This document shows, in pieces, positions 4,622 to 30,094 of a DNA stretch of 64,000 nucleotides. The stretch covers positions 4,128,001 to 4,192,000 of the forward strand of contig CBDDPY010000002.1 in the NCBI GenBank assembly GCA_965232515.1, written 5' to 3'. Position 1 is the first letter of the stretch, and each line of letters starts with the position of its first letter. A program made the position numbers and the translations under genes. Under the pieces are notes generated by a model that ran no database searches, was not told the DNA's origin, and worked only from the letters and a program-made list of their open reading frames with translations. The stretch comes from Alphaproteobacteria bacterium. GTDB lineage: Bacteria > Pseudomonadota > Alphaproteobacteria > GCA-2731375.

Positions 4622-5023
4622 TCAATCTTCCAGATAGGCCGTGCATTTCAGCTCGACCCGCAGGCCCGGCATCGAGAAGCGCTTCACCTCGAAGCCGGTC
4701 CAGGTCGGGTAGTTGCGGACCATGTAGCGGTCCTTGACCTGCATGAACAGCGGCAGGTCGGTCATGTCGGTGTGGTAGGAGACCAGCTCGACGACATCGT
4801 CGAAGCCGGCGCCGGCCGCGTCCAGGACCAGCTTCACGTTCTCGAAGGCTTGCGCGAACTGCGCTTCCGGATCCTCGATCACATTGAGGTCCCGGTCGCG
4901 GCCGACCTGGCCGGCGATGTAGAGGTGATTGCCGACCCGCACGCCGGGCGCGTAATGGTAAGTCTCGTAGATGTTCTCCATGCCCGGCGGGATGATGGTC
5001 TGTCGCTTGGCCGGCATCGGCAC
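4622..5023 (-). CDS. RidA/YjgF family protein
   Basis: YAPGVRVGNHLYIAGQVG...FENVKLVL...LRVELKCTA. Confidence 0.88.
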   Translation of the reverse strand: MPMPAKRQTIIPPGMENIYETYHYAPGVRVGNHLYIAGQVGRDRDLNVIEDPEAQFAQAFENVKLVLDAAGAGFDDVVELVSYHTDMTDLPLFMQVKDRYMVRNYPTWTGFEVKRFSMPGLRVELKCTAYLED

Positions 5024-5030
5024 GCTCCCT

Positions 5031-5807: not shown

Positions 5808-5829
5808 CTCTCAGTCTCCCTTCAGCGGT

Positions 5830-7857: not shown

Positions 7858-7878
7858 GACGATCGAACCCCGTTGTTA

Positions 7879-9195: not shown

Positions 9196-9713
9196 CAGTC
9201 GGTCTTGCCGTCTGCGGTGCGCGACCGGAACAGCAGCCAGAGCTGACGGAGGATGACGATCAGGAACAAAACCGCGCCCAGCAATAATGCGAACTTCACG
9301 AAAGCCGGCGCCGGCGTGTTCCACGAGGTGCCCGACCGCTCGGGTGTCCAACTGCCGTTGGCGGCGAACCTGAACAGCGTGCGCTGCGTGATCGACCACA
9401 TCGCCACCGCGAGGCCGCCGAGATAGATCGTGCCGGCAATCAGACTGACAAACTCAGCCAAGCGGCGACCGCGCCGCGGCATGCGGTCGGCCAGGAACGT
9501 GATGCGCATGTGCGACCGGTCGGCCATGCAATAGGCGCCGCCGAAGATGAAGGCGACGGCCGCGACGATGCCGGCCAGTTCGTGCGCCCAGAATGTCGGC
9601 GCGTTCAGCCCGTAGCGAACAGCCACCTCGTAGGCCATCATCACGGCGATCGCCAGAAAACCCCAGGCGAGGCCGTGGCCGACGGCGAGTGCAAGGCGGT
9701 CAATCCAGCGCAA
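9195..9713 (-). CDS. TRAP transporter small permease (DctQ)
   Basis: YEVAVRYGLNAPTFWAHEL, HMRIT; 4 TM; between DctP and DctM. Confidence 0.88.
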   Translation of the reverse strand: MRWIDRLALAVGHGLAWGFLAIAVMMAYEVAVRYGLNAPTFWAHELAGIVAAVAFIFGGAYCMADRSHMRITFLADRMPRRGRRLAEFVSLIAGTIYLGGLAVAMWSITQRTLFRFAANGSWTPERSGTSWNTPAPAFVKFALLLGAVLFLIVILRQLWLLFRSRTADGKTD

Positions 9714-15771: not shown

Positions 15772-15809
15772 ACCTAACCTGCCTCCGTCCGTTGCCGGCG
15801 GGCCACCGC

Positions 15810-17120
15810 TCAGACCTGCTCGACCTGCTTGGCGAACAGTTCGCGGAAAGCCGGATAGATGTCACCGGGCTTGGCGATGCGCTTCATTTCGAAGTTCTGC
15901 CATTGCTCCTTCACGGTCCGATAGGCCTGCCACAAGGCCGCGCCGGACTCGGAATCGCCGAACAGGCCCATCTCGCGCTCGTCGATGATCTCGACATAGG
16001 TGAAGTACTGGCAGACCGGCATCAGCTCCTGATGCAGCAGGGCGACGCAACGTTCACTGTCGCCGGAGAAGTTCTCGCCGTCCGACGCCTGGGCGGCATA
16101 GATGTTCCAGGTGTCGGTCGGATAGCGGTCGGCGACGACCCCGGCCATCTCGCGCAACGCCGTGCTGACCACCGTGCCGCCGGTCTGCGGGCTGTAGAAG
16201 AAGGTTTCCTCGTCAACCTCGGAAGCTTCGTGCGTATGCCGGATGAAGACGACGTCGACATGCTCGTAGCGGCGCTTCAGGAACATGTGCAGCAGCACGA
16301 AGAAGCGCTTGGCCAGATCCTTTTCGCGCTGCCCCATGGAGCCGGAGACGTCCATCAGGCAGAACATGACGGCGTTGGTGTTCGGCTCGGGCCGTTGTTC
16401 GTTATAGCGGTAACGCACGTCGAACGGATCGATGAAGCCGACGACCTTGCGCCGCCGCTCGAGCCCCTCGAGCTCCTCGATCAGCGCTTTCAGCTTTTGC
16501 TCGTCCTCGTCGGTCCGGCCGGTCTTGGCCTCCAGCGCCGTAATCTGCCGGCGCAGGTCCTCGAGCGTCGAGTTCTTCGGCCGGGCCAGCGCGATTCGAC
16601 GCCCCAGGCTATTGCGCATGGTGCGCGCGACATCCAGGTTCGACGGGTTGCCGACCCGGCTGAAACCGGCACGATGACGCGTGAAAGAGACGATCTCCTT
16701 CAGCGTCGTCTTGACCAGGTTCGGCAGCTCCAGATCCTCGAAGAACAGATCCAGGAATTCCTCGCGCGACAGCGCGAACTGGAATTCGTCCTCGCCGTCG
16801 CCCTGGTCGGTGGCCTTCTTGCCGCCACCACCCTCGCCCTGTTGCGGCTTCGGGATGCGGTCGCCGGTCTCGAACTCCTTGTTGCCGGTGAACACCCGCT
16901 CGCGGATGCCGCCCTTGCTGCTGTGACTGAAGCGCGGCTCGCCGATGCCCTTGGTCGGGATCGTCACGGTCTCGCCACTGGCGACATCCGTGATCGAGCG
17001 GTCCCGCACCGACTTGTTGACGACCTCTTTGATCTGGGCGCGGGCCCGTCGGATAAAGCGCTGGCGGTTGCCCAGGCTTTTGCCCTTGGGATTTTGCCGC
17101 CGATCGATGAACTGGTGCAT
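15810..17120 (-). CDS. yeaH: YeaH/YhbH (DUF444) vWA-like protein
   Basis: IDRRQNPKGKSLGNRQRF, MDVSGSM, GGTVVS, QASDGEN. Confidence 0.92.
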   Translation of the reverse strand: MHQFIDRRQNPKGKSLGNRQRFIRRARAQIKEVVNKSVRDRSITDVASGETVTIPTKGIGEPRFSHSSKGGIRERVFTGNKEFETGDRIPKPQQGEGGGGKKATDQGDGEDEFQFALSREEFLDLFFEDLELPNLVKTTLKEIVSFTRHRAGFSRVGNPSNLDVARTMRNSLGRRIALARPKNSTLEDLRRQITALEAKTGRTDEDEQKLKALIEELEGLERRRKVVGFIDPFDVRYRYNEQRPEPNTNAVMFCLMDVSGSMGQREKDLAKRFFVLLHMFLKRRYEHVDVVFIRHTHEASEVDEETFFYSPQTGGTVVSTALREMAGVVADRYPTDTWNIYAAQASDGENFSGDSERCVALLHQELMPVCQYFTYVEIIDEREMGLFGDSESGAALWQAYRTVKEQWQNFEMKRIAKPGDIYPAFRELFAKQVEQV

Positions 17121-17135
17121 GGCCTCTGGCCGGGC

Positions 17136-19070
17136 TCAGCCCGCCTTATTCACGCGCATGTACCATTCGACGAGACGCCGGACCTGACGCTGGGTGTAGC
17201 CGCGCTCGACCAGACGCGAGACGAAGTCGTTGTGTTTCTTCTCCGTTTCGCTGTCCTTCTTCGAGCCGAAGCTGATCACCGGGAGCAGATCCTCGACCTG
17301 ACCGAACATCCGTTTCTCGATGACGTCGCGCAGCTTCTCGTAGCTGGTCCAGGACGGGTTCTTGCCGTCGTTCTGGGCCCGCGCACGCAGCACGAACTTC
17401 ACCACCTCGTTGCGGAAGTCCTTCGGATTGGCGATGCCGGCCGGCTTTTCGATTTTCGCCAGCTCGGCGTCCAGCACCTCGCGGTCGAACAGCTGACCGG
17501 TATCCGGATCCTTGTAGTCCTGCTCCTCGATCCAGGCATCGGCATAGGCGATGTAGCGGTCGAACAGGTTCTGCCCATACTCGGTATAGGATTCGAGGTA
17601 GGCCTTCTGGATCTCGTTGCCGATGAACTCGGCATACTTCGGCGCCAGGTCGGCCTTGATGAACTCGAGGTACTGGTCCTCTGTCTCGCGCGCGAACTGC
17701 TCGCGCTTGATCGCCTGCTCCAGCACATACATCAGATGCACCGGGTCGGCCGCGACCTCCTCGATGTCGTGGTTGAAGGTCTCGGACAGCACCTTGAAGG
17801 CGAACCGCGTGCTGACGCCGGTCATGCCTTCGTCGACGCCGGCCGCGTCGCGGTATTCCTGCATCGACTTGGCCTTCGGGCCAGTGTGCTTCAGGTTCTC
17901 GCCGTCATAGACCCGCATCTTGGCGTAGAGCGTCGAGTTCTCGTGCTCGCGCAGGCGCGTCAGCACGCTGAAGCGGCTCAGGATTTCGAGCGTTTCCGGC
18001 GCGCAGGGCGCGTCGCCGAGCTGACTTTCCCGCAACAGCTTGTGATAAATCTCGGCTTCCTCGGTGCCGCGCAGACAATAGGGCACCTTGACCACGGAAA
18101 TCCGGTCGAGGAAGGCCTCGTTGTTCTTGTTGCTCTTGAACTGCTGCCATTCGGCCTCATTCGAGTGCGCCAGGATGATGCCCTGGAACGGGAAGGCGCC
18201 AAAGCTCTCGGTGCCGAGATAATTGCCTTCCTGCGTGGCGGTCAGCAGCGGGTGCAGCACCTTGATCGGCGCCTTGAACATCTCGACGAATTCCAACAGT
18301 CCTTGAGTCGTTCGGTTCAGGCCGCCGGAGAAGCTGTAGGCGTCGGGGTCGTTCTGGCTGAAATGCTCGAGCTTGCGGATGTCGAGCTTGCCAACCAGGG
18401 CGGAGATGTCCTGGTTGTTTTCGTCGCCGGGTTCCGTCTTGGCGACGCCGACCTGACGCAGCTTCGACGGCATCATCTTGACGACGGCGAACTTCGAGAT
18501 ATCGCCGTCGAATTCGTCCAGGCGCTTGACCGCCCAGGGCGACATCAAGCCATTTAACCGGCGCCGCGCGATACCGTACTTGTCTTCAAGCAGATCGCCC
18601 ATGCGCGCCGGATCGAACAGACCGAGCGGCGATTCGAACACCGGGCTGACCTGATCGCCGGCTTTCAACACGTAGATCGGGTTCTTTTCCATCAGCAGCT
18701 TCAGACGCTCGGCCAGCGTCGATTTGCCGCCGCCCACGGGGCCGAGCAGATAAAGCACCTGCTTGCGCTCTTCGAGGCCCTGCGCGGCATGCTGGAAGTA
18801 GCCGACGATCCGCTCGATCGTCTGCTCCATGCCGTAGAAGCCGCTGAATGCGGGATAGCGCTTGATGGTTCTATTGAGGAAAATGCGGCCCAATCGCGAG
18901 TCCGAACTGGTGTCGATCAGTTCAGGTTCGCCGATGGCGTCGATCATGCGTTCCGCCGCCGAGGCGTACATCAGGGGGTGGTCGCGGCACCCGAGCAGAT
19001 AGTCGTGCAGACTCATCTCCTCGGAGGCTTCACGCTGATAATTTTCCGAATATGCTTCGAAAACGTTCAT
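17136..19070 (-). CDS. prkA: PrkA/YeaG family AAA+ serine protein kinase
   Basis: GPVGGGKS, EPGDENNQDIS, EFVEMFKAPIKVLHPLLTATQE. Confidence 0.95.
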   Translation of the reverse strand: MNVFEAYSENYQREASEEMSLHDYLLGCRDHPLMYASAAERMIDAIGEPELIDTSSDSRLGRIFLNRTIKRYPAFSGFYGMEQTIERIVGYFQHAAQGLEERKQVLYLLGPVGGGKSTLAERLKLLMEKNPIYVLKAGDQVSPVFESPLGLFDPARMGDLLEDKYGIARRRLNGLMSPWAVKRLDEFDGDISKFAVVKMMPSKLRQVGVAKTEPGDENNQDISALVGKLDIRKLEHFSQNDPDAYSFSGGLNRTTQGLLEFVEMFKAPIKVLHPLLTATQEGNYLGTESFGAFPFQGIILAHSNEAEWQQFKSNKNNEAFLDRISVVKVPYCLRGTEEAEIYHKLLRESQLGDAPCAPETLEILSRFSVLTRLREHENSTLYAKMRVYDGENLKHTGPKAKSMQEYRDAAGVDEGMTGVSTRFAFKVLSETFNHDIEEVAADPVHLMYVLEQAIKREQFARETEDQYLEFIKADLAPKYAEFIGNEIQKAYLESYTEYGQNLFDRYIAYADAWIEEQDYKDPDTGQLFDREVLDAELAKIEKPAGIANPKDFRNEVVKFVLRARAQNDGKNPSWTSYEKLRDVIEKRMFGQVEDLLPVISFGSKKDSETEKKHNDFVSRLVERGYTQRQVRRLVEWYMRVNKAG

Positions 19071-19707
19071 GACCGTCCTCCATCAATGGGTGAACGGGTC
19101 GATCGCCAAACTACGGCCGCGCAAAGCATTGCAAATATGTCCTCTTCAGCCTCTCGTTCCTCGCTCTTCCTCCCCCGGTGTCCCAAGTTGTGCATTTGCC
19201 AATTCTTGGCTTATGTCACCCTGCTTTTGTTTGACCCTTCTTAAATGTAGCGTCTCATTGGAACACGGCTACCCTGGTCCATTCAAATTTTCATCACGCA
19301 TTAGCGGTCGGTTGTGCGCCAACCAAGGCGGCGCGCCAATCGCAACCGAAAGATGCAGAGAAAGATTTGACGCACGAAATCAACGGGTTGATCCGCCGGT
19401 CTTGAGGCGGCGTCGAACGCCGGATTGACTCGACCGTCGCGGCGACGTGCAGGCGTCGGCGTGTAATCAATTCGTCATCATTGCAAGCATGCAACACACA
19501 ATCGCGGTGATTCGCCGTCTGGCGCTGGGTTTCGTTGGCGCGCGACGAATTTTCTGCTGCAACGATCTTGGCTGTTTGGGGATGCGAACCGGCGGTGATA
19601 TCTCGCCGCGCGCCGTCATCGGCATCGAGCCGCGGCGCGTCGTGTCGAGATATGTCGTCTGCGTATCGCATTTTTTCCCTAGCCAATGAAGTGTCGTGCC
19701 GGAGTGC

Positions 19708-19723
19708 TTAAATAACGGTTAAC
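19708..19723. promoter_or_regulatory. CtrA-type binding site
   Basis: TTAA-ATAACGG-TTAAC is an exact TTAA-N7-TTAA(C) match in an intergenic region. Confidence 0.55.
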
Positions 19724-19899
19724 CATGTCACTAAATTCGAGAATATGATCGCCAACGCGTAGATGTGATGCGTCAACCGCCGTCCTAACAATTACGCGGC
19801 ACTGTCGATGTCGATCCGAAAAAGTCGACATCGATCGCAAGTGAAGCAGGACAATTTGGGAGGTCCGGGCGGCGATCAGATGGCGGGGATTTGCGTTCG

Positions 19900-21216
19900 A
19901 TGAAACATCAGCGCCCGGAAGATCTGCGGCCCGAGATCGCGCTGCTGCTGGCCTGCGCCCGAAGTACCTACGACGACGACGCCAGGGCGCGTATTGCCGG
20001 CCTGTTGCGAACCCCGCCGGACTGGACCTACCTGGTGCAAACCGCGATCGATCACGGCGTTTCGCCGCTGTTGTGTCGGGCCATGCTGCAGGTATTTCCC
20101 GATGCCGTGCCTGATGATGTGCGGGCGGCCGCAGGAACGCATCTCGACGATAATGACGCCGACAACCGTTCGCGTACATCTGAGCTGTTGCGCATCCTTG
20201 CGGCGCTGGCGCAACGGAACATTCCGGCCATTCCGTTCAAAGGCCCGGCCGTGGCCGAACGGATCTACGGCGACTTGTCGCTGCGGCGGTTTCGCGATCT
20301 GGACTTCTTGCTTCGCGAATCCGACATCGACGCCGCGCTCGACGTGCTGCGGCAACTGGATTATCCGACCGAGACCGGCTTCGTCTCGGCGCGCGATCCA
20401 GCCTTTCGCCTGACTCCGGCGCAAACCCAAGCGTTCCGCGACTATGCCGGCGAGTACATCTTCTACAAACGCGACCAAAGCGTGGTGATCGAGCCGCACT
20501 GGCATTTCGCGCCCGCCACCTTGAGCGTCGACATCGACTATACGGCGTTGTGGCGCCGGACGTTCGATGCCGACCTGGCCGGCGCAACAGTCCGCACGCT
20601 GACGCCCGAAGACGAATTGCTGGTGCTTTGCGTCCACGGCTCGAAGGAAATCTGGACGCGCCTGCAATGGATCTGTGACGTCGCCGAACTGATCCGCGCC
20701 TATCCCGGCCTCAATTGGGTCGCAACGCTGCAGCGGGCCGAACGGCAGGGCTGCGAGCGCATGCTGTTGCTGGGACTGTCGCTGGCGCATCGGTTGCTGC
20801 AGGCGCCGTTGCCGCCGACGGTGCGCAAGCTGACCGAGCAAGCGGCCGTAAACGTGCTGGTGCGGGATGTCGAACGCGCGCTGTTCGCCGACCGCGACGC
20901 GCCGACGTCGATCTATTCGGTGTCACTGTTCCGGGTTCGGATGCGCGAAAGACTGCGCGATCGTTGGCGTTACGTCTGGCGCACGATCACCACGCCGCGC
21001 ATTCAGCATTTCGAGATGGTCGCCTTGCCGGATGCGTTGTTCTTCGGCTACGTGCCGGTCAAGCTCGTACACGACTATGTGCTGCTGCCGCTCTGGCTGC
21101 TGGCCAAGCGGGTGCGCGCGGCCATCCTGTCGACCGCAAATCGACCCGTGCAGGAACCGGTGGCCGACCGGACGCCGCCGCCGCGTGACGGCCGACGTCC
21201 GGTTAAACCAACCTAA
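19900..21216 (+). CDS. Nucleotidyltransferase family protein (NTP_transf_5-like)
   Basis: FKGPAVAERIYGDLSLRRFRDLDFLL (KG...R..DxD), IEPHW, LCVHGSKEIWTRLQWICDV. Confidence 0.88.
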   Translation: MKHQRPEDLRPEIALLLACARSTYDDDARARIAGLLRTPPDWTYLVQTAIDHGVSPLLCRAMLQVFPDAVPDDVRAAAGTHLDDNDADNRSRTSELLRILAALAQRNIPAIPFKGPAVAERIYGDLSLRRFRDLDFLLRESDIDAALDVLRQLDYPTETGFVSARDPAFRLTPAQTQAFRDYAGEYIFYKRDQSVVIEPHWHFAPATLSVDIDYTALWRRTFDADLAGATVRTLTPEDELLVLCVHGSKEIWTRLQWICDVAELIRAYPGLNWVATLQRAERQGCERMLLLGLSLAHRLLQAPLPPTVRKLTEQAAVNVLVRDVERALFADRDAPTSIYSVSLFRVRMRERLRDRWRYVWRTITTPRIQHFEMVALPDALFFGYVPVKLVHDYVLLPLWLLAKRVRAAILSTANRPVQEPVADRTPPPRDGRRPVKPT

Positions 21217-21223
21217 CGCGGCG

Positions 21224-21403
21224 TCAGACCTGACCGTTTTGGCCGTACGGCACCGTGGCCGTGCCGGCCGCGGCCTGCTTGGCCTTGGCCGAAAGCAGCA
21301 ACGCGACAGCCGGTGCCGTCGCCGCGGCGACGCCTGCCTTTTTCAGGAATTTCCGACGGTCGCTGTCATGCGACGTCTCGGGGGTCTTTTTGCTGTCCGA
21401 CAT
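21224..21403 (-). CDS. 59-aa peptide with twin-arginine leader; putative RiPP-like precursor
   Basis: MSDSKKTPETSHDSDRRKFLKKAGVAAATAPAVALLLSAKAKQAAAGTATVPYGQNGQV; strong RBS GAGGAG; dedicated sigma-54 promoter. Confidence 0.8.
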   Translation of the reverse strand: MSDSKKTPETSHDSDRRKFLKKAGVAAATAPAVALLLSAKAKQAAAGTATVPYGQNGQV

Positions 21404-21532
21404 AACGTTCTCCTCACCATTACTTTTGTTGTTTTGGCTTCTCGGCAATACGCGCCAAAAAAACGCTGCACGATCCGATTGCAAGGTCCAGCACAGCTCC
21501 AAACCAAACCCAACAACATCAAGTACTGAAAC

Positions 21533-21549
21533 AGCAATTTCCGTGCCAA
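21533..21549 (-). promoter_or_regulatory. Sigma-54 (-24/-12) promoter of the small peptide gene
   Basis: Minus strand reads TTGGCACGGAAATTGCT, matching TGGCAC-N5-TTGCW. Confidence 0.8.
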
Positions 21550-21600
21550 TACAATTAACCTCAAAAATGCCGGATTTCTGGATTTTGGCAAAGGTGCGAC

Positions 21601-21636
21601 TGTAAAGAATTCCGACAATCGTCGGTATTCTTTACA
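21601..21636. promoter_or_regulatory. Inverted repeat; putative twin enhancer (UAS) for a sigma-54 activator
   Basis: TGTAAAGAATTCCGAC-AATC-GTCGGTATTCTTTACA: 16-bp arms, one mismatch, 52-87 bp upstream of the -24 element. Confidence 0.55.
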
Positions 21637-23179
21637 TGGCGTCGCGATTCAGATGTTCAGCAAGGCGAAGCGCGAGCGCCACCAACGTCAGCGTCGGATT
21701 TGAGCAGCCTGCGGTCGGAAACACGGCACTGCCCGCGACATAAAGGTTGCCGATACCATGCACGCGGCAGTTCGCATCGACCACGCCCTGCCGCGGGTCA
21801 TCATGCATTCGCAAGGTGCCGATGTGGTGGCCGCTGTTGACCGAGCGGCGCAACCAGGTTTCGCTGCTGACATCGACCTGCACCCGACCCGTGCCGGTTC
21901 GGCCCGCCTCGAGGCCGATAAGTTCGTGGGTCCGGCGAATGCTCCGGACCTCACGCTCGCCCAAACGCCAATCGACCCGCGCCTGGCGCAGGCCGAGGCT
22001 GTCTCGGGTATCGGCAAGCGTGACACGGTTGTCCGGGTTCGGCGCCGGCTCGACGCGGCTGTGGAAGTTAAGGAAACCGACGGGCGGGCGGCCGCCGACG
22101 ACTTTGCGGAACAACGCGCGCCCGACACCGTCAATATCGCCGGCGACATTGCGGACATGCGCGCCCAGATCTTCGGGCAGGCTGCCGTCGCCAACGGCGT
22201 CGACGATCGATTTCAACGACGCCACGCCGGCGGAGCGCTGGCCGACGGCCTGCAGCACGACGGTGATGTTGAGCAGCTCCTCCCGGCGTTGTACGCCGGC
22301 CGGCAGGATCAAGATGCCGTGGAACCTGCGATCGACGTCGTAGGCGCGCACGGCCATATCCGGGTCGCTCGGCGCCATGCGGCTTGAGGCCAGCAGCCGA
22401 TGGTCGGTGAAGAAGCGCCCGACGAGATCGCCGCCGTTGCCGAGACCGCCACGCCGGCGCCGGTCCGACAACAGCATCAACCGCGCGTTCTCGATGGCGC
22501 CACAGGCCAGGACGTAGCGATGGCCGGTCACCCGGAAACCGATGCCGGAAAGCGTGGCGCACCGCAGTCCGGTCGCCCGCGCGGCCGTGTCATCGGTCTC
22601 GATCTCGACGACGTTGGCGTGCAGATAGACCGTCACGTTGTCGGCGCGAACCAGATCTTCCCGATAGGCCTGGCCGAAGCGCGTCGGCGGACCCCGCCGA
22701 TAGATCCCGGTCTGAATTCGCGCCGGATCGAACGGCAACGGCGCATCGTCATCCTGGCCGGGCCAGGAGGAATTGCCGTAATCGAATGAACCGGTCTCGC
22801 AGATCGCTTCGGCGCGCCGATAGTAGGGAACCAGCGCGTCGCGGCCGAACGGCCAACCGCTATGCGGCACCCAGGGACGCGCCTCGAAATCGATCTCGTC
22901 AAAGGGACGGCAATTGCCTTCCCAATGGTTGGTGCTGCCGCCGAAGTAGCGCAGGCGGGTGGCGTCCAGCGGATCGTATCTGTCATCGACGACCTCGCCG
23001 GCATAGAGTGCCTGGGTCTCGGCCGCGAACTCGAAGCCGCCGCTTTCCAGCACGACCACGCGATGCCGGGTGCCGGCCAGTTCACGGGCGATACTGATCC
23101 CGGCCGCGCCCGCGCCGACGACAACGATATCGGCATCGATGATGGTGCCCGCCGGCAGGCTGCGCGCGTCGAGGATCAA
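21632..23179 (-). CDS. GMC-family FAD-dependent oxidoreductase
   Basis: VVVGAGAAG, FGGSTNHW, LACGAIENARL, HHIGTLRM, GSAVFP..G.SNPTLT; TTG start abuts the upstream stop. Confidence 0.9.
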   Translation of the reverse strand: MILDARSLPAGTIIDADIVVVGAGAAGISIARELAGTRHRVVVLESGGFEFAAETQALYAGEVVDDRYDPLDATRLRYFGGSTNHWEGNCRPFDEIDFEARPWVPHSGWPFGRDALVPYYRRAEAICETGSFDYGNSSWPGQDDDAPLPFDPARIQTGIYRRGPPTRFGQAYREDLVRADNVTVYLHANVVEIETDDTAARATGLRCATLSGIGFRVTGHRYVLACGAIENARLMLLSDRRRRGGLGNGGDLVGRFFTDHRLLASSRMAPSDPDMAVRAYDVDRRFHGILILPAGVQRREELLNITVVLQAVGQRSAGVASLKSIVDAVGDGSLPEDLGAHVRNVAGDIDGVGRALFRKVVGGRPPVGFLNFHSRVEPAPNPDNRVTLADTRDSLGLRQARVDWRLGEREVRSIRRTHELIGLEAGRTGTGRVQVDVSSETWLRRSVNSGHHIGTLRMHDDPRQGVVDANCRVHGIGNLYVAGSAVFPTAGCSNPTLTLVALALRLAEHLNRDAM

Positions 23180-24397
23180 CTACTCGAGCGCCCGGATCAG
23201 CGCAACGGCGTCGTCGAGAGACGACATCGGCAGCGCATAACACTCGACGCCGGCGGCCCAATCGACCATCGCCTTGACGCGCTCGACGTTCAGCGGCGCC
23301 GGGATCGCCAAGCACTCGTCCATCATCCGGTGCAGGGCGGCCACCTTGCCGATCGGTTCCAACGCCGTTTCGGCATCGGCCGCATAGCGCGGGAAGATCA
23401 GGCGACGCACGGGCTGCGCCGCATTTGACGTGGGCCGCATGTCGGCCGGCGGCGACAGGTATCGCACGACCTTGCCGTCCCCGCGGTGGTGCGTTTTCAA
23501 GTCGGCGAGTTCGGGATAATAGGGCGTCATCAGATCCCAGCCCTCGCGCTTGAAGCACATCGACAGCGGCACGGGCACGGCCTGGAACGTGGATTCCGAC
23601 AGCAGCGCGACTTCGTCGGAGAAGTACTTGAACCCTGCGCGGCAGAGCGCGGCCGTCAGCGACGACTTGCCGCTGCCGGGCGCGGCGGGCAGCAGCGTGC
23701 AGGCCCGACCGTCACTGACCACGCCGGCGTGGATATTCAAAAAGTAGTCGGCGCCGCGCAGTGACAGCTGCCAAATCAAGCCCTTCACGATCGGCGCCAG
23801 TTGGTCGTAACGCGCGCAGCGGCAAAACGGTGATTGGTCGAGATAGATCAGATGCCCGTCGCGGGTCGCCACGATGTCGACCAAGCTGTCGGCCGGCGCA
23901 GTCGCAACGGCGAGATGCGCGATCGCCGTATGGACCCATTCGATCTGCGCCGGCTCGTTGCAACGCACCTCGACGCGATGATCCAGCAGCGCATAGTGCC
24001 GGCGCTCGGCGCTTGGCACGGCCGCGAACGGCGGCAGGCCGCCATCCGCTTCGAGCGCCGGCGGCGCGGGCACTTCCGGCTCGCGTGGATTGGCGCCCTG
24101 CAACAGACCCAGCGTGCGCCACTGCGCCAGGATATCGGCCACATGCCGTTCGGCCTCGCTGTCGGCGAAGCCGAACGTCGCCGACATCGCCGTCGCGATC
24201 GCCGCCGGTGAGACGCCTTCCTCCAACTGGCACCAAACATAGGTCGCCGTCGTGTTGAGCGCGTAGATCTCCTGCGCCGCGTCGGCGTAGAGCAGCCCTT
24301 CATCACCGAGGATGAAGAGATGCACGTCGTCGCCTGGTCGAACCGCCGCGGTCACGGGCACGCTCCCGCCATTTCTTGGTTTTTCGCTCCGGCCCAA
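23180..24397 (-). CDS. PqqD/RRE domain fused to HPr-kinase-related P-loop kinase
   Basis: N-term LLYADAAQEIYALNTTATYVWCQLEEG...VADILAQWRTLGLL (PqqD-like); C-term IHAGVV...PAAPGSGKSSLTAAL...FSDEVALL; start uncertain. Confidence 0.85.
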   Translation of the reverse strand: MGRSEKPRNGGSVPVTAAVRPGDDVHLFILGDEGLLYADAAQEIYALNTTATYVWCQLEEGVSPAAIATAMSATFGFADSEAERHVADILAQWRTLGLLQGANPREPEVPAPPALEADGGLPPFAAVPSAERRHYALLDHRVEVRCNEPAQIEWVHTAIAHLAVATAPADSLVDIVATRDGHLIYLDQSPFCRCARYDQLAPIVKGLIWQLSLRGADYFLNIHAGVVSDGRACTLLPAAPGSGKSSLTAALCRAGFKYFSDEVALLSESTFQAVPVPLSMCFKREGWDLMTPYYPELADLKTHHRGDGKVVRYLSPPADMRPTSNAAQPVRRLIFPRYAADAETALEPIGKVAALHRMMDECLAIPAPLNVERVKAMVDWAAGVECYALPMSSLDDAVALIRALE

Positions 24398-24572
24398 CCT
24401 AATAGGCCGGAGAAGCTTGTAAATAGGCTAACGGCCGAGCCATTCGGCGCGGTGGCGACAAACGCAATCGTGATTTGGTCCGGCGCGACACGATCGGAAA
24501 AGATATCGCTCAGGCGGGGCCGGGCGAAGGTGGCGGCGGCATGTCCGTTGCGACCGTAGATGGGACCTGATC

Positions 24573-24908
24573 ATGAGAGCTTGGAAATTCTCGCCTGTCA
24601 TCCTCATGGCCCTTGCCCCGTTCGGCGACGGCGCGCTCGCGACCGGCGACCGCGATGCGCGGGCCTGTCTCGACGCCAGCCGATCGCACGTCGAGCGGCT
24701 GCCAGTACAAAGCGGCGACGTCACCGGCGTCACCATTGTCCCGCGCTTGGATCTGCATCGCGAGGGCCCGTATCTGGTCGGCTACGAAGCCTATGTCAGG
24801 CTGCAATCGTGCACCGGCTCACTGGTCCTTAACCTGAACGAGGACTGCAGCTTCCGCGACGCCTACACCCGTGGCGCCTGCAAGATCCAGGGCCTGCCGG
24901 ATTACTGA
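24573..24908 (+). CDS. Small exported protein with four cysteines
   Basis: Signal-like N-terminus, 4 Cys, fills the gap between the kinase and nudC. Confidence 0.65.
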   Translation: MRAWKFSPVILMALAPFGDGALATGDRDARACLDASRSHVERLPVQSGDVTGVTIVPRLDLHREGPYLVGYEAYVRLQSCTGSLVLNLNEDCSFRDAYTRGACKIQGLPDY

Positions 24909-25820: not shown

Positions 25821-26450
25821 TCAGGACGCATCCGGGTTGATGCCGGCGGCCATCGCCATGCGCACCAGGTGCGAGAGGCTCTTGGCCTGGGTCTTCTCCA
25901 TCACGCGGGCACGGTGGTTCTCCACGGTGCGCGGGCTGATGCCGAGCTCGTAGGCGATGATCTTGTTCGGCTGACCGATCACCAACTTTTCCAGGACCTC
26001 CCGTTCGCGCGGCGTCAGCTGCTGCAGACGCGCCGCGACTTCATCCGAACGCCGGTCGCTGGCAACGGCAGCCGTTGGCGGCGGCGCCGTGAGCGCGGCC
26101 TCGATCCGCTCCAGGATGGTCTCGCCGTTGAACGGCTTTTCGATGAAGTCGGCGGCGCCGGCCTTCATCGCCTTGACCGCCAGCGGCACATCGCCGTGGC
26201 CGGTGATGATCAGCACGGGCGGCGGGCGGTCGATCTTCTGCAGGCGCTGCAGGATGGAGATGCCATCCATGTCGGGCAGGCGGACGTCAAGCACGATACA
26301 GGCGGCATCCGACGGATCGAAGCCGGCGAAAAACGCGGCGCCCGAGGCAAAGGTGGCGATCCGCCGACCGATACCTTCGATCAGCAGCGTCAGCGAGTGC
26401 CGGATCGATTGATCGTCGTCGACGACATAGATCTTGTCGGCGTCCGACAT
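25821..26450 (-). CDS. FixJ-like response regulator
   Basis: IYVVDDD, ITGHGDVPLAVKAMKAGAADFIEKP, LTPREREV...NKIIAYELGISPRTVENHR. Confidence 0.92.
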   Translation of the reverse strand: MSDADKIYVVDDDQSIRHSLTLLIEGIGRRIATFASGAAFFAGFDPSDAACIVLDVRLPDMDGISILQRLQKIDRPPPVLIITGHGDVPLAVKAMKAGAADFIEKPFNGETILERIEAALTAPPPTAAVASDRRSDEVAARLQQLTPREREVLEKLVIGQPNKIIAYELGISPRTVENHRARVMEKTQAKSLSHLVRMAMAAGINPDAS

Positions 26451-26582
26451 GTCTGTTCCCTCCCGGCGGCTCGCACTGCTCCGACCCCCATTCGTCATCG
26501 TCACCGACGGCGCTGCCCCTAGCCCGTCTGGGTAAGATTACGCAGGTATTATCCCCGATTCATCCCGTTAATCTGAATCGCT

Positions 26583-26725
26583 ATTTACTTCCTTGGGCGC
26601 CGGGCATTCGGACCTTTCCCTCCCGCCCGGTTGCCCATGTTGCGTAGAACGGGTTCCAGAATTGCGACCCCCAGTTCGGTAGCCCGTGGTTGCGGCGGTT
26701 CCTTGGAACCGCCGCTTCTTTTTTT
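26583..26725 (+). ncRNA. Candidate trans-acting sRNA (three hairpins, C-rich loops, intrinsic terminator)
   Basis: Hairpin 26594-26637 with loop ...CCTTTCCCTCCC, hairpin ~26649-26687, terminator; no plus-strand CDS upstream. Confidence 0.55.
26692..26725 (+). terminator. Rho-independent terminator
   Basis: GCGGCGGTTC-CTTG-GAACCGCCGC followed by TTCTTTTTTT. Confidence 0.85.
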
Positions 26726-26859
26726 GACCACGCCATGCCGCCGCGCCTGATGCAGGCTATTCGCCCAAATAGACATACGAAATATGTCGACAAAATCGTC
26801 GGCTTATTGCTGTTATGCTCAAAGTGACAACGTTAGACACAATAATAAGGGGGATTGCG

Positions 26860-27324
26860 GTGCGGTTTTTCGCGGTTCTTTTCATCGCCGTTACGATGCT
26901 TGCCGGTCCTGTTGTCATTGGCACGGCCAAAGCACAGGACGCAACCATCGGGCACATCAAGTCGGTCAAGGGCGAGGCCAAGGCGATGCGCGCCGGCGGC
27001 GACGTGGCGCTCGCCGTCGGCGATCCGGTCTATCGCGAAGATGTGCTGGAAACCAGCACCGGCGGCGCGCTCGGCGTCATCTTTCTCGACAACACGATCT
27101 TGTCGCTCGGGCCGCGGACGACGGTCACGCTGCGCGATTACGAATTCGAGCCGGCGACGGAAAAGATCTCGTTTCTGGCCAGGATCACGCGCGGCACCCT
27201 GCTGTACGTGTCCGGCGTGATCGCCAAGCTGTCCCCCAGCGCGGTCTCGATCGAAACGCCGGTCGCCACGGTCGCCGTCCGCGGCACCCGCTTCCTGGCG
27301 CAGGTCAAGGACGACGGCGGCTGA
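26860..27324 (+). CDS. Exported stand-alone FecR-domain protein
   Basis: Signal peptide (...AKA), IGHIKSVKGEA, FLDNTILSLGP, IETPVATVAVRGTRF; start uncertain (GTG 26860 or ATG 26815). Confidence 0.85.
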   Translation: MRFFAVLFIAVTMLAGPVVIGTAKAQDATIGHIKSVKGEAKAMRAGGDVALAVGDPVYREDVLETSTGGALGVIFLDNTILSLGPRTTVTLRDYEFEPATEKISFLARITRGTLLYVSGVIAKLSPSAVSIETPVATVAVRGTRFLAQVKDDGG

Positions 27325-27384
27325 CGCCGCGATCGCCGACAAATCCGTCTATCGCAGGTTATTGAATTGGGGGATGCGTATCCG

Positions 27385-28008
27385 ATGAGCCGACATATCC
27401 GGACTCCCGCACGGCCGCTCGGCACCCTGTTGCTGATGTTGTGCCTGCTACCGGCCTGCAGCCGGCTGAACGACAACCTTTTCGTGCTGCTGGAAGACGC
27501 CGACGGCCAGGTCGGCTCGATCGAGGTCTCGAACGACAGGGGCAGTCAGACCATCGACCAGACCGGCCAGGCGGTCGCCCTGCGCAGCGCCAACAGCACG
27601 CCGAGCGACGTATTCACCGTATCGCAGGACGATATCGACGAACGCTTCCGCGACGCGCTCGCCGCCGAGCCTGAAAAGCCCGTCAACTTCGTGCTCTACT
27701 TCAAAACCGGCAGCACCGACCTGCGGTCTGAATCGGCCGAACAATTGCCCCAGGTGCTGCAGGTCATCGCCAACCGGACGGCGCCGATCGTCGCCGTGGT
27801 CGGCCACACCGACACCGCCGGTTCGGCCCGCATCAACGCCGCGCTCGCGCTGGACAGGGCGCAGGAAGTGGCGAAGATCCTGACCGGCATCGGCATTCCC
27901 GCCGACCGCATCGAGATCACCTCGCACGGCGAGAACAATCTGCTGATCCCCACCGACGACAACGTCGCCGAGCCGCGCAACCGGCGGGTCGAGATTACGG
28001 TTCGCTAG
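27385..28008 (+). CDS. OmpA-family (peptidoglycan-binding) lipoprotein
   Basis: Lipobox LLPAC, LYFKTGS, VGHTDTAGS..IN..LALDRA, EPRNRRVEI. Confidence 0.9.
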   Translation: MSRHIRTPARPLGTLLLMLCLLPACSRLNDNLFVLLEDADGQVGSIEVSNDRGSQTIDQTGQAVALRSANSTPSDVFTVSQDDIDERFRDALAAEPEKPVNFVLYFKTGSTDLRSESAEQLPQVLQVIANRTAPIVAVVGHTDTAGSARINAALALDRAQEVAKILTGIGIPADRIEITSHGENNLLIPTDDNVAEPRNRRVEITVR

Positions 28009-30094
28009 CGCCACCGGCCGGCACCGTAAAGCGGAACTCGGTGCCGCCGCCGGGCGCGTCGGTTGCCCACAGATGGCCGTCATGGGCCTCGACGATCGAG
28101 CGGCAGATCGCCAGGCCCAGGCCTAATCCTTTCGACTTTGTGGTGACGAACGGCTCGAACAGGCGCTCCTTCAACTCGTCGTCGAGCCCGCTGCCGGTGT
28201 CGCCGACCGCGACCTCGATGGCGCCATCGGGCGTCGCGGCGGTCGCGAGGCTGATACGCCGGACCGGCGCGCCGTCCATGGCCTGAACCGCGTTGCGGAT
28301 CAGGTTGACCACGACCTGCTGGATCTGAATGCGGTTGACCATCGCCGGCGGCAGGCCCTCGGCCAGGTCGCTGATGAACGCGACATCCCGCGACATGGGC
28401 TCCGACAGCGCCAGCTCGGCGGCCTCCATGACCACGGCATTGACGTCTTCCGGATGGCGCGAGACCTCACCCTCATCGACGAGCTCGCGCAGGCCGCGGA
28501 TGATGCCGGTCGCGCGTTCGGCATCGCCGCTGATCTGGCGCAGGGTATCACCGACCGGCCCCGATGACTGGCCGTTCTGCCGCTTCAGGGCGTTCCGGGC
28601 GGCGTCGGCATAAACCATGATCGAGGTCAGCGGCTGGTTCAGCTCGTGCGCGATGGCCGACGAGAGCTGGCCCATGGCGCTTTCCCGCGCGGCGTTCTGC
28701 AGCTCGGTTTGCAGCTGCCGCAGCTCGACCTGGCGCGCCCGGTCGCGCAGCGCGGCATTGAGCGCCAGCGCCTGCCGCCGCCGCTCCTCGCCGATCAGCG
28801 CGCTGCTCACCAGCGTCAGGAAGATCAGCAGCGCGGTGGCGACGGGGTAGGTCGCGTCCAGCAGCAGGCGGAGCTCGGCATAGCTGAACCAGGACGCCGC
28901 CAGCGTGCCGGAAACCAGCGTCAGGAACAGCAGGATGGACCAGCGCGCCTTCAGCAACGGCTGGCATATGACCAACAGCAGGCCGATGGCGATAGCGGCC
29001 AGCAGCTCCAACGCCCCGGCGAAGTTCGCCGGCCGGTGCAGCGCTTGGCCTGAGAGGATGTTTTCGACCGCCTGGGCGTGGATCTCGACGCCGGCCATCG
29101 AGGCGCCGACCGGCGTCGCCGCGATATCCAACAGACCTGTCGACGTGGTGCCGATCAGCACGATCTTGTCCGCGAACCGCGCCGGCGCCACCGCGCCGCG
29201 CAGCACCGCCGCCGCCGACACGAAGCGGTCGGCGTCATGCCGCGAAAAGTTGATCCAAAGCCGGCCCCGCTGATCGGTCGGCACCGAAAGCCGCCCGACG
29301 CCGACGCCGCTGACGCCGGCGACATCGGCGTCGACCGTCAGCAGGTTCTCGCCCAGCCGCACGCGCAGCACCTCGAGCGCGAAGGCCGGCCGCATGGTCT
29401 CGCCAACCAGCGACAGCAACGGCAGCCGGCGCAGCACGCCGTCGCGTTCCAGGTCCAGGCTGACGATGCCGCGGCCGGTCGCCGCGTCGGCCAGTTCGTC
29501 GATGCTGCGCAGCAGCCCGGCATAGGCCGGCACGAACGGCGTCGGATCGCCTCGCAGGATAACCGGCGTCGCCGGCAGATCGACGGTCTCCTCCGATGCC
29601 GGACCGCCCGGTCGGACGGCGATGCCCATCACCACCGGCGCGCGTCGGAAACTCTCGGCCAGAACGGCATCGTTCGACGGCAGGGCCGCGAGCCGCTGCC
29701 GCGTGGCGGCATCAAGGCCGGGCAGGTTCTTGACGAGACTCTGCGGCGACAGCCGGTCGCGCTCCGAGAACAGGATATCGATGCCGATGACGCTGGCGCC
29801 CTGCGTCGCGATGGTCGATATCAGCTCGGCCATGACACCGCGCGACCATGGCCACTGCCCCAATTCGGCAAGACTGGCGTCGTCGATGTCGACGATGACC
29901 ACGGGCCGCTGGTCGACATGGCGCGGTTGGATTTCCTGATAGAAATCGAAGAACCGGACCCGGGCGCCCTCGATCGGCGCCGGATCGACAATGCGCAGCC
30001 CCGTCAGAGCGATCAGCAACAGCAGCGCGACCCAACGCGGTCGCCACCAAGACGTGGCGACGGGTGTCAGATCGTCAGGTTCGTCAGACGCCAT
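27995..30094 (-). CDS. CHASE2-domain sensor histidine kinase
   Basis: VVIVDIDDASLAELGQWPWSR, DGVLRR, GVEIHAQ (CHASE2), 3 TM, AHELNQPL, NLIRNA, FVTTK..GLGLGL. Confidence 0.92.
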   Translation of the reverse strand: MASDEPDDLTPVATSWWRPRWVALLLLIALTGLRIVDPAPIEGARVRFFDFYQEIQPRHVDQRPVVIVDIDDASLAELGQWPWSRGVMAELISTIATQGASVIGIDILFSERDRLSPQSLVKNLPGLDAATRQRLAALPSNDAVLAESFRRAPVVMGIAVRPGGPASEETVDLPATPVILRGDPTPFVPAYAGLLRSIDELADAATGRGIVSLDLERDGVLRRLPLLSLVGETMRPAFALEVLRVRLGENLLTVDADVAGVSGVGVGRLSVPTDQRGRLWINFSRHDADRFVSAAAVLRGAVAPARFADKIVLIGTTSTGLLDIAATPVGASMAGVEIHAQAVENILSGQALHRPANFAGALELLAAIAIGLLLVICQPLLKARWSILLFLTLVSGTLAASWFSYAELRLLLDATYPVATALLIFLTLVSSALIGEERRRQALALNAALRDRARQVELRQLQTELQNAARESAMGQLSSAIAHELNQPLTSIMVYADAARNALKRQNGQSSGPVGDTLRQISGDAERATGIIRGLRELVDEGEVSRHPEDVNAVVMEAAELALSEPMSRDVAFISDLAEGLPPAMVNRIQIQQVVVNLIRNAVQAMDGAPVRRISLATAATPDGAIEVAVGDTGSGLDDELKERLFEPFVTTKSKGLGLGLAICRSIVEAHDGHLWATDAPGGGTEFRFTVPAGGASEP

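What the first reader, a model, noticed from the sequence alone, without database searches (positions are those of the whole stretch)
19900..24397. Candidate undescribed RiPP-like system: RRE-kinase + nucleotidyltransferase + GMC oxidoreductase around a Tat-leader peptide
Seen: a PqqD-like domain fused to an HprK-like P-loop kinase, directly abutting a GMC flavoenzyme, then a 59-aa peptide gene; a nucleotidyltransferase converges on the peptide with a 7-bp gap. Established: PqqD/RRE domains bind precursor leaders. HprK-like kinases and NTP_transf_5 enzymes tailor some lasso peptides (paeninodin/pseudomycoidin-type clusters), and a PqqD + HprK-related kinase + nucleotidyltransferase cassette of unknown role is recognised in TIGRFAM (HPr-rel-A). 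No lasso cyclase, B2 peptidase, radical SAM or YcaO gene is in this window. Inference: the enclosed peptide is the substrate. Its Thr/Tyr-containing core could be phosphorylated, then nucleotidylated or glycosylated, oxidised by the GMC enzyme, and exported.
Basis: partly seen in the sequence, partly recalled or inferred. Interest (0 to 1): 0.9.

Follow-up and report, generated by a model that had tools for sequence, protein, structure and literature searches.

The report
Tat-leader peptide modification cassette
A small exported peptide is encoded beside a peptide-binding kinase and a nucleotidyltransferase that probably decorate it before export; this is a Gram-negative, Tat-exported cousin of peptide systems first described in 2026.

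Summary
Window 19891-24397 encodes an NTP_transf_5 enzyme, a 59-aa peptide with a twin-arginine (Tat) signal, a GMC flavoenzyme and a PqqD(RRE)-HprK-like kinase fusion.

The fusion, the transferase and the peptide recur together. A peptide HMM hits 18 of 24 genome loci and 27 of 41 metagenome loci; many misses are cut contigs. The GMC gene is in 1 of 24 and 0 of 41, so it is a lineage-specific extra.

The peptides share a fixed-length Tat leader ending K-x-A-x-A, then a variable core. The core composition tracks the accessory enzyme: MNIO or YcaO, JmjC, or GMC here.

A complex model pairs the RRE beta-strand with leader residues 31-38 (score 0.83; best control 0.00). It shows likeness to solved RRE-leader complexes, not binding.

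Best reading: a RiPP-type cassette that modifies the peptide before Tat export. The chemistry is inferred only.

Closest published kin are the linear polyphosphorylated peptides of Bacillota (PMC13381572). Differences: fused RRE-kinase, Tat leader, no dedicated peptidase or exporter.

Earlier notes of this scan describe like cassettes on other DNA.

Verdict: new variant of a known kind; interest 0.7.

The parts
19891..21216 (+). NTP_transf_5 nucleotidyltransferase-fold enzyme, 441 aa from the first TTG
   Evidence: PF14907 E 1.8e-57. KG...R-D-L-D-F-L...E-P-H-W motifs are conserved with 12 relatives. A homologue lies in 17 of 24 fusion loci. Triple fusions NTase-PqqD-kinase exist (P0148, P0153, P0218).
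21224..21403 (-). 59-aa precursor peptide including its stop codon. Residues 1-46 are the Tat-type leader (21266-21403). Residues 47-59 are the predicted core GTATVPYGQNGQV (21227-21265).
   Evidence: TIGR01409 19.3 bits against cut-off 16.7. D-R-R-K-F-L-K motif and Shine-Dalgarno site. The family HMM scores it 1e-18 as the only strong hit in the 7.39-Mb genome. Fixed spacing Pro0/K+11/A+13/A+15.
21404..21631 (-). 228-bp AT-richer spacer between the GMC gene and the peptide gene
   Evidence: Sequence. One weak terminator-like hairpin at 21625-21612, no better than chance (7 found against 5.7 expected), and no consensus promoter on this strand. Regulation is unresolved.
21632..23179 (-). GMC-family FAD oxidoreductase, 515 aa, no signal peptide; a lineage-specific accessory gene
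   Evidence: PF05199 2.6e-22, PF01266 9.7e-14. Best solved relatives are the FAD-glucose dehydrogenase alpha subunit 6a2u_B (5.6e-25), the fructose dehydrogenase large subunit and pyranose oxidases, over the C-terminal domain only. The start abuts the fusion's stop. That junction is also bridged by contigs of relatives at about 87-99% identity (records 14 and 21).
23180..24397 (-). PqqD/RRE-kinase fusion, 405 aa from the first TTG. A 391-aa form starting at residue 15 is on record (P0001). RRE is about residues 17-102 (24092-24349). The PEPCK/HprK-like P-loop part is about residues 108-405 (23183-24076).
   Evidence: Invariant H223-A-G-V, G241-x-G-K244 and S260-D-E262 in 18 sequences. 588 cluster representatives at E<=1e-30.

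Best explanation
This is a RiPP-type peptide-modification cassette of a widespread, unpublished family in Pseudomonadota and Acidobacteriota. The 59-aa product is a precursor whose conserved 'leader' is a real-looking Tat signal: RRKFLK, an h-region TAPAVALLL, then a c-region K-Q-A-A-A. In the cytoplasm the PqqD/RRE domain of the fusion binds the h-region as an added beta-strand. The attached HprK/PEPCK-like P-loop kinase then phosphorylates a hydroxyl residue near the start of the core. I favour Tyr53; Thr48 and Thr50 are alternatives. The NTP_transf_5 enzyme then extends that group, with a sugar by analogy to PsmN or with a nucleotide. In this lineage the co-translated GMC flavoenzyme may oxidise the added sugar or a side-chain alcohol. 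After release the peptide leaves through Tat. Housekeeping signal peptidase I cuts after A-A-A46 and frees a modified 13-mer, GTATVPYGQNGQV. Shown here: gene content, conserved synteny, leader architecture, folds and a supportive complex model. Inferred: every chemical step, the modified residue, export and cleavage.
For: Domains and folds. Synteny: peptide HMM hits in 18 of 24 genome and 27 of 41 metagenome fusion loci; NTase in 17 of 24. Specificity: in the six-frame translation of the whole genome the HMM gives one strong hit (1e-18, this peptide). The next hit (4.8e-5) lies beside another HprK-like kinase and an NTP_transf_5 gene. Leader: among 45 unique complete peptides, K at +11 in 34, A at +13 in 33 and A at +15 in 35, counted from the invariant Pro. 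The first Tyr lies within +15 to +26 in 36 of 45; 2000 tail shuffles gave mean 19.3 and maximum 29. Cores vary and track the accessory enzyme. All 11 peptides from the 10 JmjC loci that have a peptide carry at least 5 Asp. Eight peptides from 7 MNIO/YcaO loci are 40-93% Gly+Ser+Cys. MNIO (PF05114, 157.7 bits), YcaO (210 bits) and a SagB-like nitroreductase are known RiPP enzymes. Single proteins fuse NTase, GlcNAc-transferase or MNIO to PqqD-kinase. Complex model: ipSAE 0.83, 0.83 and 0.22 (median 0.83); best of 3 controls 0.00. That mark was reached by 58 of 80 solved complexes and 2 of 110 mismatched pairs. The runs share at least 51% of contacts and the partner's pLDDT is at least 55. Fusion residues 43-48 pair with peptide residues 31-38. 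TatC (241.9 bits) and bacterial signal peptidase I (166.1 bits) are in the genome. Precedent: LppK phosphorylates core Ser3 of a linear precursor held by an RRE, and the leader is removed by a signal-peptidase-type enzyme (PMC13381572, section 7). PsmN adds hexoses to a phosphoserine (PMC8498205, passages read).
Against: There is no biochemical evidence for any step. Kinase-family scores are below the curated cut-offs, and no HprK match appears by sequence in the PDB. In the published LPP system the S3T and S3Y variants were not phosphorylated and the NTase was inactive in the test host (PMC13381572, section 7). A Tyr target and NTase activity are therefore guesses. Nine of 45 peptides lack the nearby Tyr. 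Six of 24 genome loci gave no HMM hit; L022 has only a variant peptide, and L012, L013 and L019 have ample flank. The core, residues 48-59, is not confidently placed in the complex model, and one of three runs scored 0.22. RRE-leader complexes are solved, so the pass may reflect likeness only. Related sequences are not independent, so the shuffle test overstates. The GMC link rests on operon position in one narrow clade.
Confidence: 0.7

Rival explanations
1. The three-gene system is real, but the GMC oxidoreductase is an operon passenger that acts on an unrelated small alcohol or sugar and never touches the peptide.
For: A GMC homologue is present in 1 of 24 genome loci (L026, 4.5 kb away across two opposite-strand genes) and in 0 of 41 metagenome loci. 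Its best solved relatives are free-sugar dehydrogenases and oxidases.
Against: Its start abuts the fusion's stop, and it lies between the fusion and the peptide gene. That junction is kept in relatives at about 87-99% identity. GMC genes also follow the NTase in 4 of 56 kinase-only HPr-rel-A-type loci (L040, L052, L053, L061). Other clades carry a different tailoring enzyme at this position.
Confidence: 0.3
2. The small ORF is a Tat 'hitch-hiker' subunit that carries the signal-less GMC enzyme to the periplasm, as the gamma subunit does for FAD-glucose dehydrogenase. The kinase and NTase would serve something else.
For: The best solved relatives of the GMC are the alpha subunit of Burkholderia cepacia FAD-GDH and the fructose dehydrogenase large subunit. 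The GDH alpha subunit needs a Tat-signal small subunit for secretion (PMC6719666, passages read). The GMC has no signal peptide and the peptide gene follows it.
Against: Peptide homologues sit beside the fusion or NTase in 44 loci that have no GMC hit (17 genome, 27 metagenome) and in L026, whose GMC lies 4.5 kb away. The predicted mature part is 13 aa and hypervariable, whereas the mature gamma subunit is a 121-aa five-helix protein (PMC6719666). The peptide matches no Pfam family beyond a Tat-signal model. The match to the GDH alpha subunit covers only residues 371-513.
Confidence: 0.05
3. The kinase and NTase act on a non-peptide substrate such as an exopolysaccharide or lipid intermediate. 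The Tat peptides would be co-regulated secreted partners rather than substrates.
For: Canonical HPr-rel-A operons and the genome's third system lie among exopolysaccharide or PEP-CTERM-type glycosyltransferase genes. NTP_transf_5 has no defined reaction. The canonical systems pair with Tat proteins of about 200 aa rather than with peptides.
Against: The fused domain is an RRE whose closest folds are lasso B1 proteins solved with leader peptides (Z 14.5 and 13.7). The model docks the leader there. MNIO and YcaO enzymes, which act on peptides, are adjacent or fused. Related kinases phosphorylate peptides (PMC13381572; PMC8498205).
Confidence: 0.1
4. The Tat-like stretch is only an RRE recognition leader. 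The peptide is not a Tat substrate and stays in the cell or leaves another way.
For: The h-region (A-P-A-V-A-L-L-L) is more conserved than signal peptides usually are. That fits a binding motif.
Against: The full Tat grammar is kept: RRxF[LV]K, an h-region of about 17 residues, a basic residue in the c-region and A-x-A at fixed spacing. TIGR01409 scores above its cut-off. No dedicated exporter or peptidase gene lies in the cassette, and the genome has no SipW-type peptidase.
Confidence: 0.1

Closest known systems
Linear polyphosphorylated peptide (LPP) clusters of Bacillota (Popov et al., Nat Commun 2026, PMC13381572; outline and sections 6-7 read)
   Same: Lasso-less set of RRE + HprK-like kinase + uncharacterised NTP transferase. 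Linear precursors with a conserved N-terminus and a variable C-terminus. Modification near the start of the core (Ser3 in LppA). Leader removal by a signal-peptidase-type enzyme.
   Different: Here the RRE and kinase are one protein. The leader is a Tat signal, not the YxxPxVLxHQxIxFETxxS motif. There is no SipW-like peptidase (none in the genome) and no MsbA-like exporter in the cassette. The hosts are Gram-negative. Accessory enzymes include GMC, MNIO, YcaO and JmjC. The likely target residue differs.
HPr-rel-A system (NCBIfam TIGR04352 HprK-related kinase A + TIGR04353 PqqD chaperone, with an NTP_transf_5 gene)
   Same: Same three enzyme types. Also paired with a Tat-signal product directly upstream (L086, L040, L042, L051, L053).
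   Different: PqqD and kinase are separate there and the Tat product is about 185-218 aa. The window's fusion scores below both cut-offs. The same genome has a true member at 365 bits.
Paeninodin/pseudomycoidin lasso tailoring (HPr-kinase homologues and the nucleotidyltransferase PsmN; review PMC8498205, passages read)
   Same: An HprK-like kinase phosphorylates a precursor Ser. An NTase-like enzyme adds one or two hexoses to the phosphate.
   Different: No lasso cyclase or B2 peptidase is here. The target there is the C-terminal Ser; the window peptide ends in Val.
Tat hitch-hiker small subunits of FAD-dependent sugar dehydrogenase complexes (PMC6719666, passages read)
   Same: A small Tat-signal product encoded beside a signal-less GMC-type enzyme whose closest solved relative is such an alpha subunit.
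   Different: The mature part is 13 aa against 121 aa. The peptide family travels with the RRE-kinase and not with GMC genes.

Membership tests
LPP family (PMC13381572) | Discrete RRE, HprK-like kinase and NTP transferase without a lasso cyclase | tested here: met
   PF05402, TIGR04352 (below cut-off) plus an HprK/P fold at Z 11.6, and PF14907. No cyclase in the window. The RRE is fused, not discrete.
LPP family (PMC13381572) | Archaeal-type (SipW-like) signal peptidase I in the cluster | tested here: not met
   TIGR02228: 0 matches in the whole genome, which is 96% complete.
LPP family (PMC13381572) | MsbA-like exporter in the cluster | tested here: not met
   The flanking genes are prkA/DUF444/spoVR on one side and nudC/response regulator on the other. 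No transporter lies in 19070-24902.
LPP family (PMC13381572) | Precursor leader with the YxxPxVLxHQxIxFETxxS motif | tested here: not met
   The leader is RRKFLKKAGVAAATAPAVALLLSAKAKQAAA.
HPr-rel-A system (TIGR04352/TIGR04353) | Kinase scores at or above the TIGR04352 cut-off (200 bits) | tested here: not met
   104 bits. The genome's true member scores 365 bits.
HPr-rel-A system (TIGR04352/TIGR04353) | PqqD part scores at or above the TIGR04353 cut-off (35 bits) | tested here: not met
   19.7 bits.
Lasso peptide cluster | Asn-synthetase-like cyclase and B2 transglutaminase-like peptidase | tested here: not met
   No PF00733 match inside the window. No PF13471 match in the genome.
RiPP recognition element (PqqD-like wHTH) | Three-strand, three-helix fold with a leader-binding groove between beta3 and alpha3 | tested here: met
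   TbiB1 Z 14.5, rmsd 1.3, 84 aligned; TfuB1 Z 13.7. Profile hit to 5v1u at 5.4e-8. In the model the leader strand lies on residues 43-48 and 85-96.
Twin-arginine signal peptide | RRxFLK-type motif, h-region, AxA c-region; TIGR01409 above cut-off | tested here: met
   19.3 against 16.7 bits. Motif and spacing. Actual export was not testable.
HprK/P-type P-loop kinase | PEPCK-like fold with Walker A and an acidic catalytic motif | tested here: met
   1ko7_B Z 11.6, 3tqf_B Z 11.4, 1jb1_A Z 11.0; PEPCK 1ii2_B Z 15.8. Invariant GSGK and SDE. The equivalence of SDE to the HprK acidic motif is recalled, not computed. Activity is not testable with these tools.
Tat hitch-hiker small subunit of FAD dehydrogenase complexes | Folded mature subunit of about 120 aa that binds the catalytic subunit | tested here: not met
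   The predicted mature part is 13 aa. No Pfam family beyond a Tat-signal model. The family occurs without GMC genes.
GMC oxidoreductase | FAD Rossmann motif plus the GMC C-terminal domain | tested here: met
   PF05199 80.3 against 24.6 bits. PF00732 21.6 against 23, just under. GAGAAG at residues 22-27.

The most novel reading that the evidence does not exclude
A Tat signal peptide doubles as a RiPP leader. The RRE grips the signal's h-region, so modification and export are coupled: the peptide cannot engage TatBC until the kinase, the NTase and the accessory enzyme have finished and let go. That would be a RiPP counterpart of the Tat proofreading chaperones. It would define a large family of Tat-exported modified peptides in Gram-negative bacteria, many carrying a modified Tyr near the new N-terminus.
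Probability: 0.35. Interest if true: 0.85.

Novelty: new variant of a known kind. Interest (0 to 1): 0.7.

Why it matters
It gives a likely substrate, and a mining handle in the leader HMM, to an enzyme trio that databases list without a function. It extends the kinase/NTase peptide chemistry just published for Bacillota to Pseudomonadota and Acidobacteriota. I found no paper in the held library that describes a natural Tat-signal RiPP leader or the HPr-rel-A system (searches; one search was judged from 25 of its 67 listed titles). If the RRE really binds the signal's h-region, it links peptide tailoring to export control. The RRE-kinase also appears as a scaffold that recruits MNIO, YcaO, JmjC, GlcNAc-transferase or GMC enzymes, so many unknown products can be predicted. 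At least 588 cluster representatives match at E<=1e-30.

Tried and rejected
- **Sequence searches of the PDB.** The kinase part alone and the family profile gave no HprK hit. Only the fold comparison did.
- **Promoter and terminator scan.** Nothing above chance, so I make no claim about a separate peptide promoter.
- **Variant peptides.** A relaxed motif search in 13 loci without an HMM hit found none beside the fusion.
- **Near relatives.** The fusion was found in 1 of 32 same-family genomes, 0 of 1 same-genus and 0 of 28 from other families of the class. That one locus, L085, had only 1.5-kb flanks and showed no peptide, NTase or GMC.
- **Reads.** Only assembled contigs were laid, so transcription, transcript ends and levels cannot be told. 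RNA-library contigs at 95-99% identity cover most of the region, but DNA carry-over is not excluded.
- **Earlier notes.** Look-ups by place and by sequence gave nothing.
- **Remote machine.** Searches failed because it was busy, and the same requests later succeeded.
- **Core anchoring.** The regex mis-set two peptides (L088, L119). By eye their Tyr lies at +20 and +19, so the count of 36 of 45 stands. The rule cut several cores too late (L008, L020, L023, L025, L115, L119, L120, L124), which shortens them.
- **Supplements.** Supplementary data of PMC13381572 could not be seen. They may list Gram-negative or fused examples.

Full report
**Observation.** The four genes are as described.
- The + strand ORF 19891-21216 is an NTP_transf_5 protein (PF14907, E 1.8e-57).
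- On the - strand lie three genes. The PqqD-kinase fusion is at 24397-23180 (PF05402 at 2.3e-9; TIGR04352 at 7.3e-30, 104 bits). The GMC oxidoreductase is at 23179-21632 (PF05199 at 2.6e-22). A 59-aa ORF follows a 228-bp spacer at 21403-21224.
- The small ORF has a GAGGAG ribosome-binding site 7 nt before its ATG and passes the Tat-signal model TIGR01409 (19.3 against 16.7 bits).
- The fusion's stop abuts the GMC start. The NTase and peptide genes converge with 7 bp between their stops.
- No YcaO, SagB-like, MNIO or JmjC gene is in the window. No Asn-synthase or radical-SAM match lies inside the window's coordinates. The genome has no lasso B2 match at all.
- The flanks are unrelated: prkA/DUF444/spoVR on one side, nudC and a two-component system on the other.

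**The fusion protein.** An AlphaFold model from 18 aligned relatives is confident (pLDDT 90.4).
- Residues 17-102 superpose on lasso B1 RREs solved with their leaders (TbiB1: Z 14.5, rmsd 1.3, 84 aligned; TfuB1: Z 13.7).
- Residues 217-405 superpose on HPr kinase/phosphorylases (1ko7_B: Z 11.6, rmsd 2.5, 124 aligned; 3tqf_B: 11.4; 1jb1_A: 11.0).
- Residues 108-405 as a whole superpose on PEP carboxykinase (1ii2_B: Z 15.8; Foldseek agrees).
- H223-A-G-V, G241-x-G-K244 and S260-D-E262 are invariant in the alignment, as expected for an active P-loop kinase. The mapping of S-D-E to the HprK acidic motif is my recollection.
- The scores for TIGR04352 and TIGR04353 are below their cut-offs, so it is not an HPr-rel-A member. 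The same genome holds a true one at 365 bits.

**Comparative genomics.** The fusion family is large. 312 proteins passed E<=0.001 among the 8000 candidates scored. 588 50%-identity representatives match at E<=1e-30.

I fetched 24 full-length relatives from species genomes (L004-L027; Alpha- and Gammaproteobacteria and Acidobacteriota by record titles). I also fetched 41 from metagenomes (L088-L128). L121 repeats L021, and the L127 peptide equals that of L024.
- An NTase homologue lies in 17 of the 24.
- A small ORF with the same leader lies beside the fusion or the NTase. An HMM built from 18 of these peptides hits 18 of 24 genome loci and 27 of 41 metagenome loci at E<=1e-3.
- L022 has a variant peptide. 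Many misses are contigs that end within about 200 bp of the fusion. L012, L013 and L019 have flanks and no peptide.
- The GMC gene is not conserved. It appears only in L026, 4.5 kb away, and in 0 of 41 metagenome loci.
- Contigs of close relatives at about 87-99% identity do bridge the GMC/fusion junction (records 14 and 21). The insertion is therefore fixed in a narrow clade.
- Among relatives of the host the cassette is patchy: 1 of 32 same-family genomes.

**The peptides.** I anchored 45 unique complete peptides on the invariant Pro of the h-region.
- Lys sits at +11 in 34, Ala at +13 in 33 and Ala at +15 in 35. This is a fixed-length Tat signal with a basic c-region and an A-x-A site.
- In the window the site falls after A-A-A46 and leaves the core GTATVPYGQNGQV.
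- The first Tyr falls at +15 to +26 in 36 of 45. Shuffled tails gave mean 19.3, sd 2.8 and maximum 29 of 2000. Relatedness inflates this contrast.
- Beyond that point the cores are hypervariable.

Core composition follows the neighbouring enzyme.
- Eleven loci carry an MbnB/TglH/ChrH-type MNIO between the peptide and the fusion. Three also carry YcaO, and four carry a SagB-like nitroreductase.
- Eight peptides of seven of these loci are 40-93% Gly+Ser+Cys.
- Eleven loci carry JmjC-type enzymes. All 11 peptides from the 10 of them that have a peptide carry at least 5 Asp.
- Single proteins fuse NTP_transf_5, a GlcNAc-type glycosyltransferase or an MNIO to the PqqD-kinase.

A conserved leader, a variable core and interchangeable tailoring enzymes are the usual signature of a RiPP family.

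**Binding model.** The full fusion and the peptide, each with its alignment, scored ipSAE 0.83, 0.83 and 0.22 (median 0.83). The best of three controls scored 0.00.
- The mark was reached by 58 of 80 solved complexes and 2 of 110 mismatched pairs.
- The runs share at least 51% of contacts. The partner's pLDDT is at least 55.
- Fusion residues 43-48 (the RRE's third strand) pair with peptide residues 31-38 (PAVALLLS). Residues 85-96 and the kinase-domain residues 352-369 also touch the peptide.
- The core itself is not confidently placed.
- RRE-leader complexes are solved, so this supports likeness rather than proving binding.

**Mechanism.** The steps are given under the best explanation. All chemical steps are inferred.
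- Export is plausible because TatC and a bacterial signal peptidase I are present, while no SipW-type peptidase or cassette exporter exists.
- The precedents are LppK, which phosphorylates Ser3 of a linear core while an RRE holds the leader, and PsmN, which adds hexoses to a phosphoserine (PMC13381572, sections 6-7; PMC8498205, passages).
- Against a simple transfer of that chemistry: LppK did not accept Thr or Tyr, and LppN was inactive in the test host.

**The GMC enzyme.** Its best solved relatives are the alpha subunit of FAD-glucose dehydrogenase, the fructose dehydrogenase large subunit and pyranose oxidases. The match covers the C-terminal domain only. The GDH alpha subunit is exported by a Tat hitch-hiker subunit (PMC6719666, passages).

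I therefore weighed the idea that the small ORF is such a subunit. I reject it, because the peptide family travels with the RRE-kinase without GMC genes, and its mature part is 13 aa against 121 aa. Sugar-oxidising relatives make oxidation of an NTase-added sugar the most economical role. The GMC may also be a passenger.

**Comparison and novelty.** The nearest published system is the LPP family of Bacillota. Three of its defining features are absent here: the SipW-like peptidase, the MsbA-like exporter and the YxxP-type leader. The RRE is fused instead of discrete. I file the cassette as a new variant, not a member.

No paper in the held library describes a natural Tat-signal RiPP leader or the HPr-rel-A system. 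Supplements were closed.

Earlier AI notes of this scan report like cassettes in at least 32 other genomes, including a fused form, and some cite the same 2026 paper. I reached the reading before I saw them, and they are not independent evidence.

Noticed in passing
L086 (own genome C2:6225000-6242000), 6480-9569, - strand: A canonical HPr-rel-A operon in the same genome: a 218-aa Tat-signal protein, PqqD_rel_X (55.6 bits), HprK_rel_A (365 bits) and an NTase-like gene, followed by lgt. The same order, a Tat protein of about 185-218 aa first, is seen in L040, L042, L051 and L053.
   Followed up: partly
L087 (own genome C2:5674000-5689000), 4669-8462, - strand: A third related system: a discrete PqqD-like ORF (8046-8462), a 273-aa HprK-like protein, a 55-aa Tat-like peptide (6978-7145, ending QASNQS), a SunS-like GT2-TPR protein and an NTP_transf_5 gene (133 bits). 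It lies next to PEP-CTERM-type glycosyltransferase genes.
   Followed up: partly
P0148, P0153, P0218; P0172, P0097, P0240, L009:5020-7236; P0157, P0193: Single proteins fuse NTP_transf_5, a PF11397 GlcNAc-type glycosyltransferase or an MNIO (PF05114) to the N-terminus of the PqqD-kinase.
   Followed up: partly
L017, L018, L107, L108, L111, L118, L124: Acidobacterial loci put an MNIO, and in three cases YcaO plus a SagB-like dehydrogenase, beside Tat-leader peptides with Gly/Ser/Cys-rich cores that resemble linear azole-peptide precursors.
   Followed up: partly
L011, L015, L104, L110, L113, L119, L120: A subfamily of longer cores shares a conserved acidic motif ([HA][IVA]LDD[FY][TS][FY]GN, usually followed by [DSN][HR]ED[IVL]D). 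Where the contig is long enough it is accompanied by one or two JmjC-type genes.
   Followed up: no
window 24573-24908 (+): A 111-aa ORF with a hydrophobic N-terminus and no Pfam family lies between the cassette and nudC. Whether it is a real gene was not tested.
   Followed up: no
window 14206-19070 (-): A prkA / DUF444 (yeaH-like) / spoVR-like three-gene block lies directly upstream of the cassette, separated by an 820-bp region of lower G+C.
   Followed up: no
window 25821-30094: A FixJ/LuxR-type response regulator, a FecR-domain protein, an OmpA-family protein and a CHASE2 histidine kinase are clustered here. No link to the cassette was seen.
   Followed up: no
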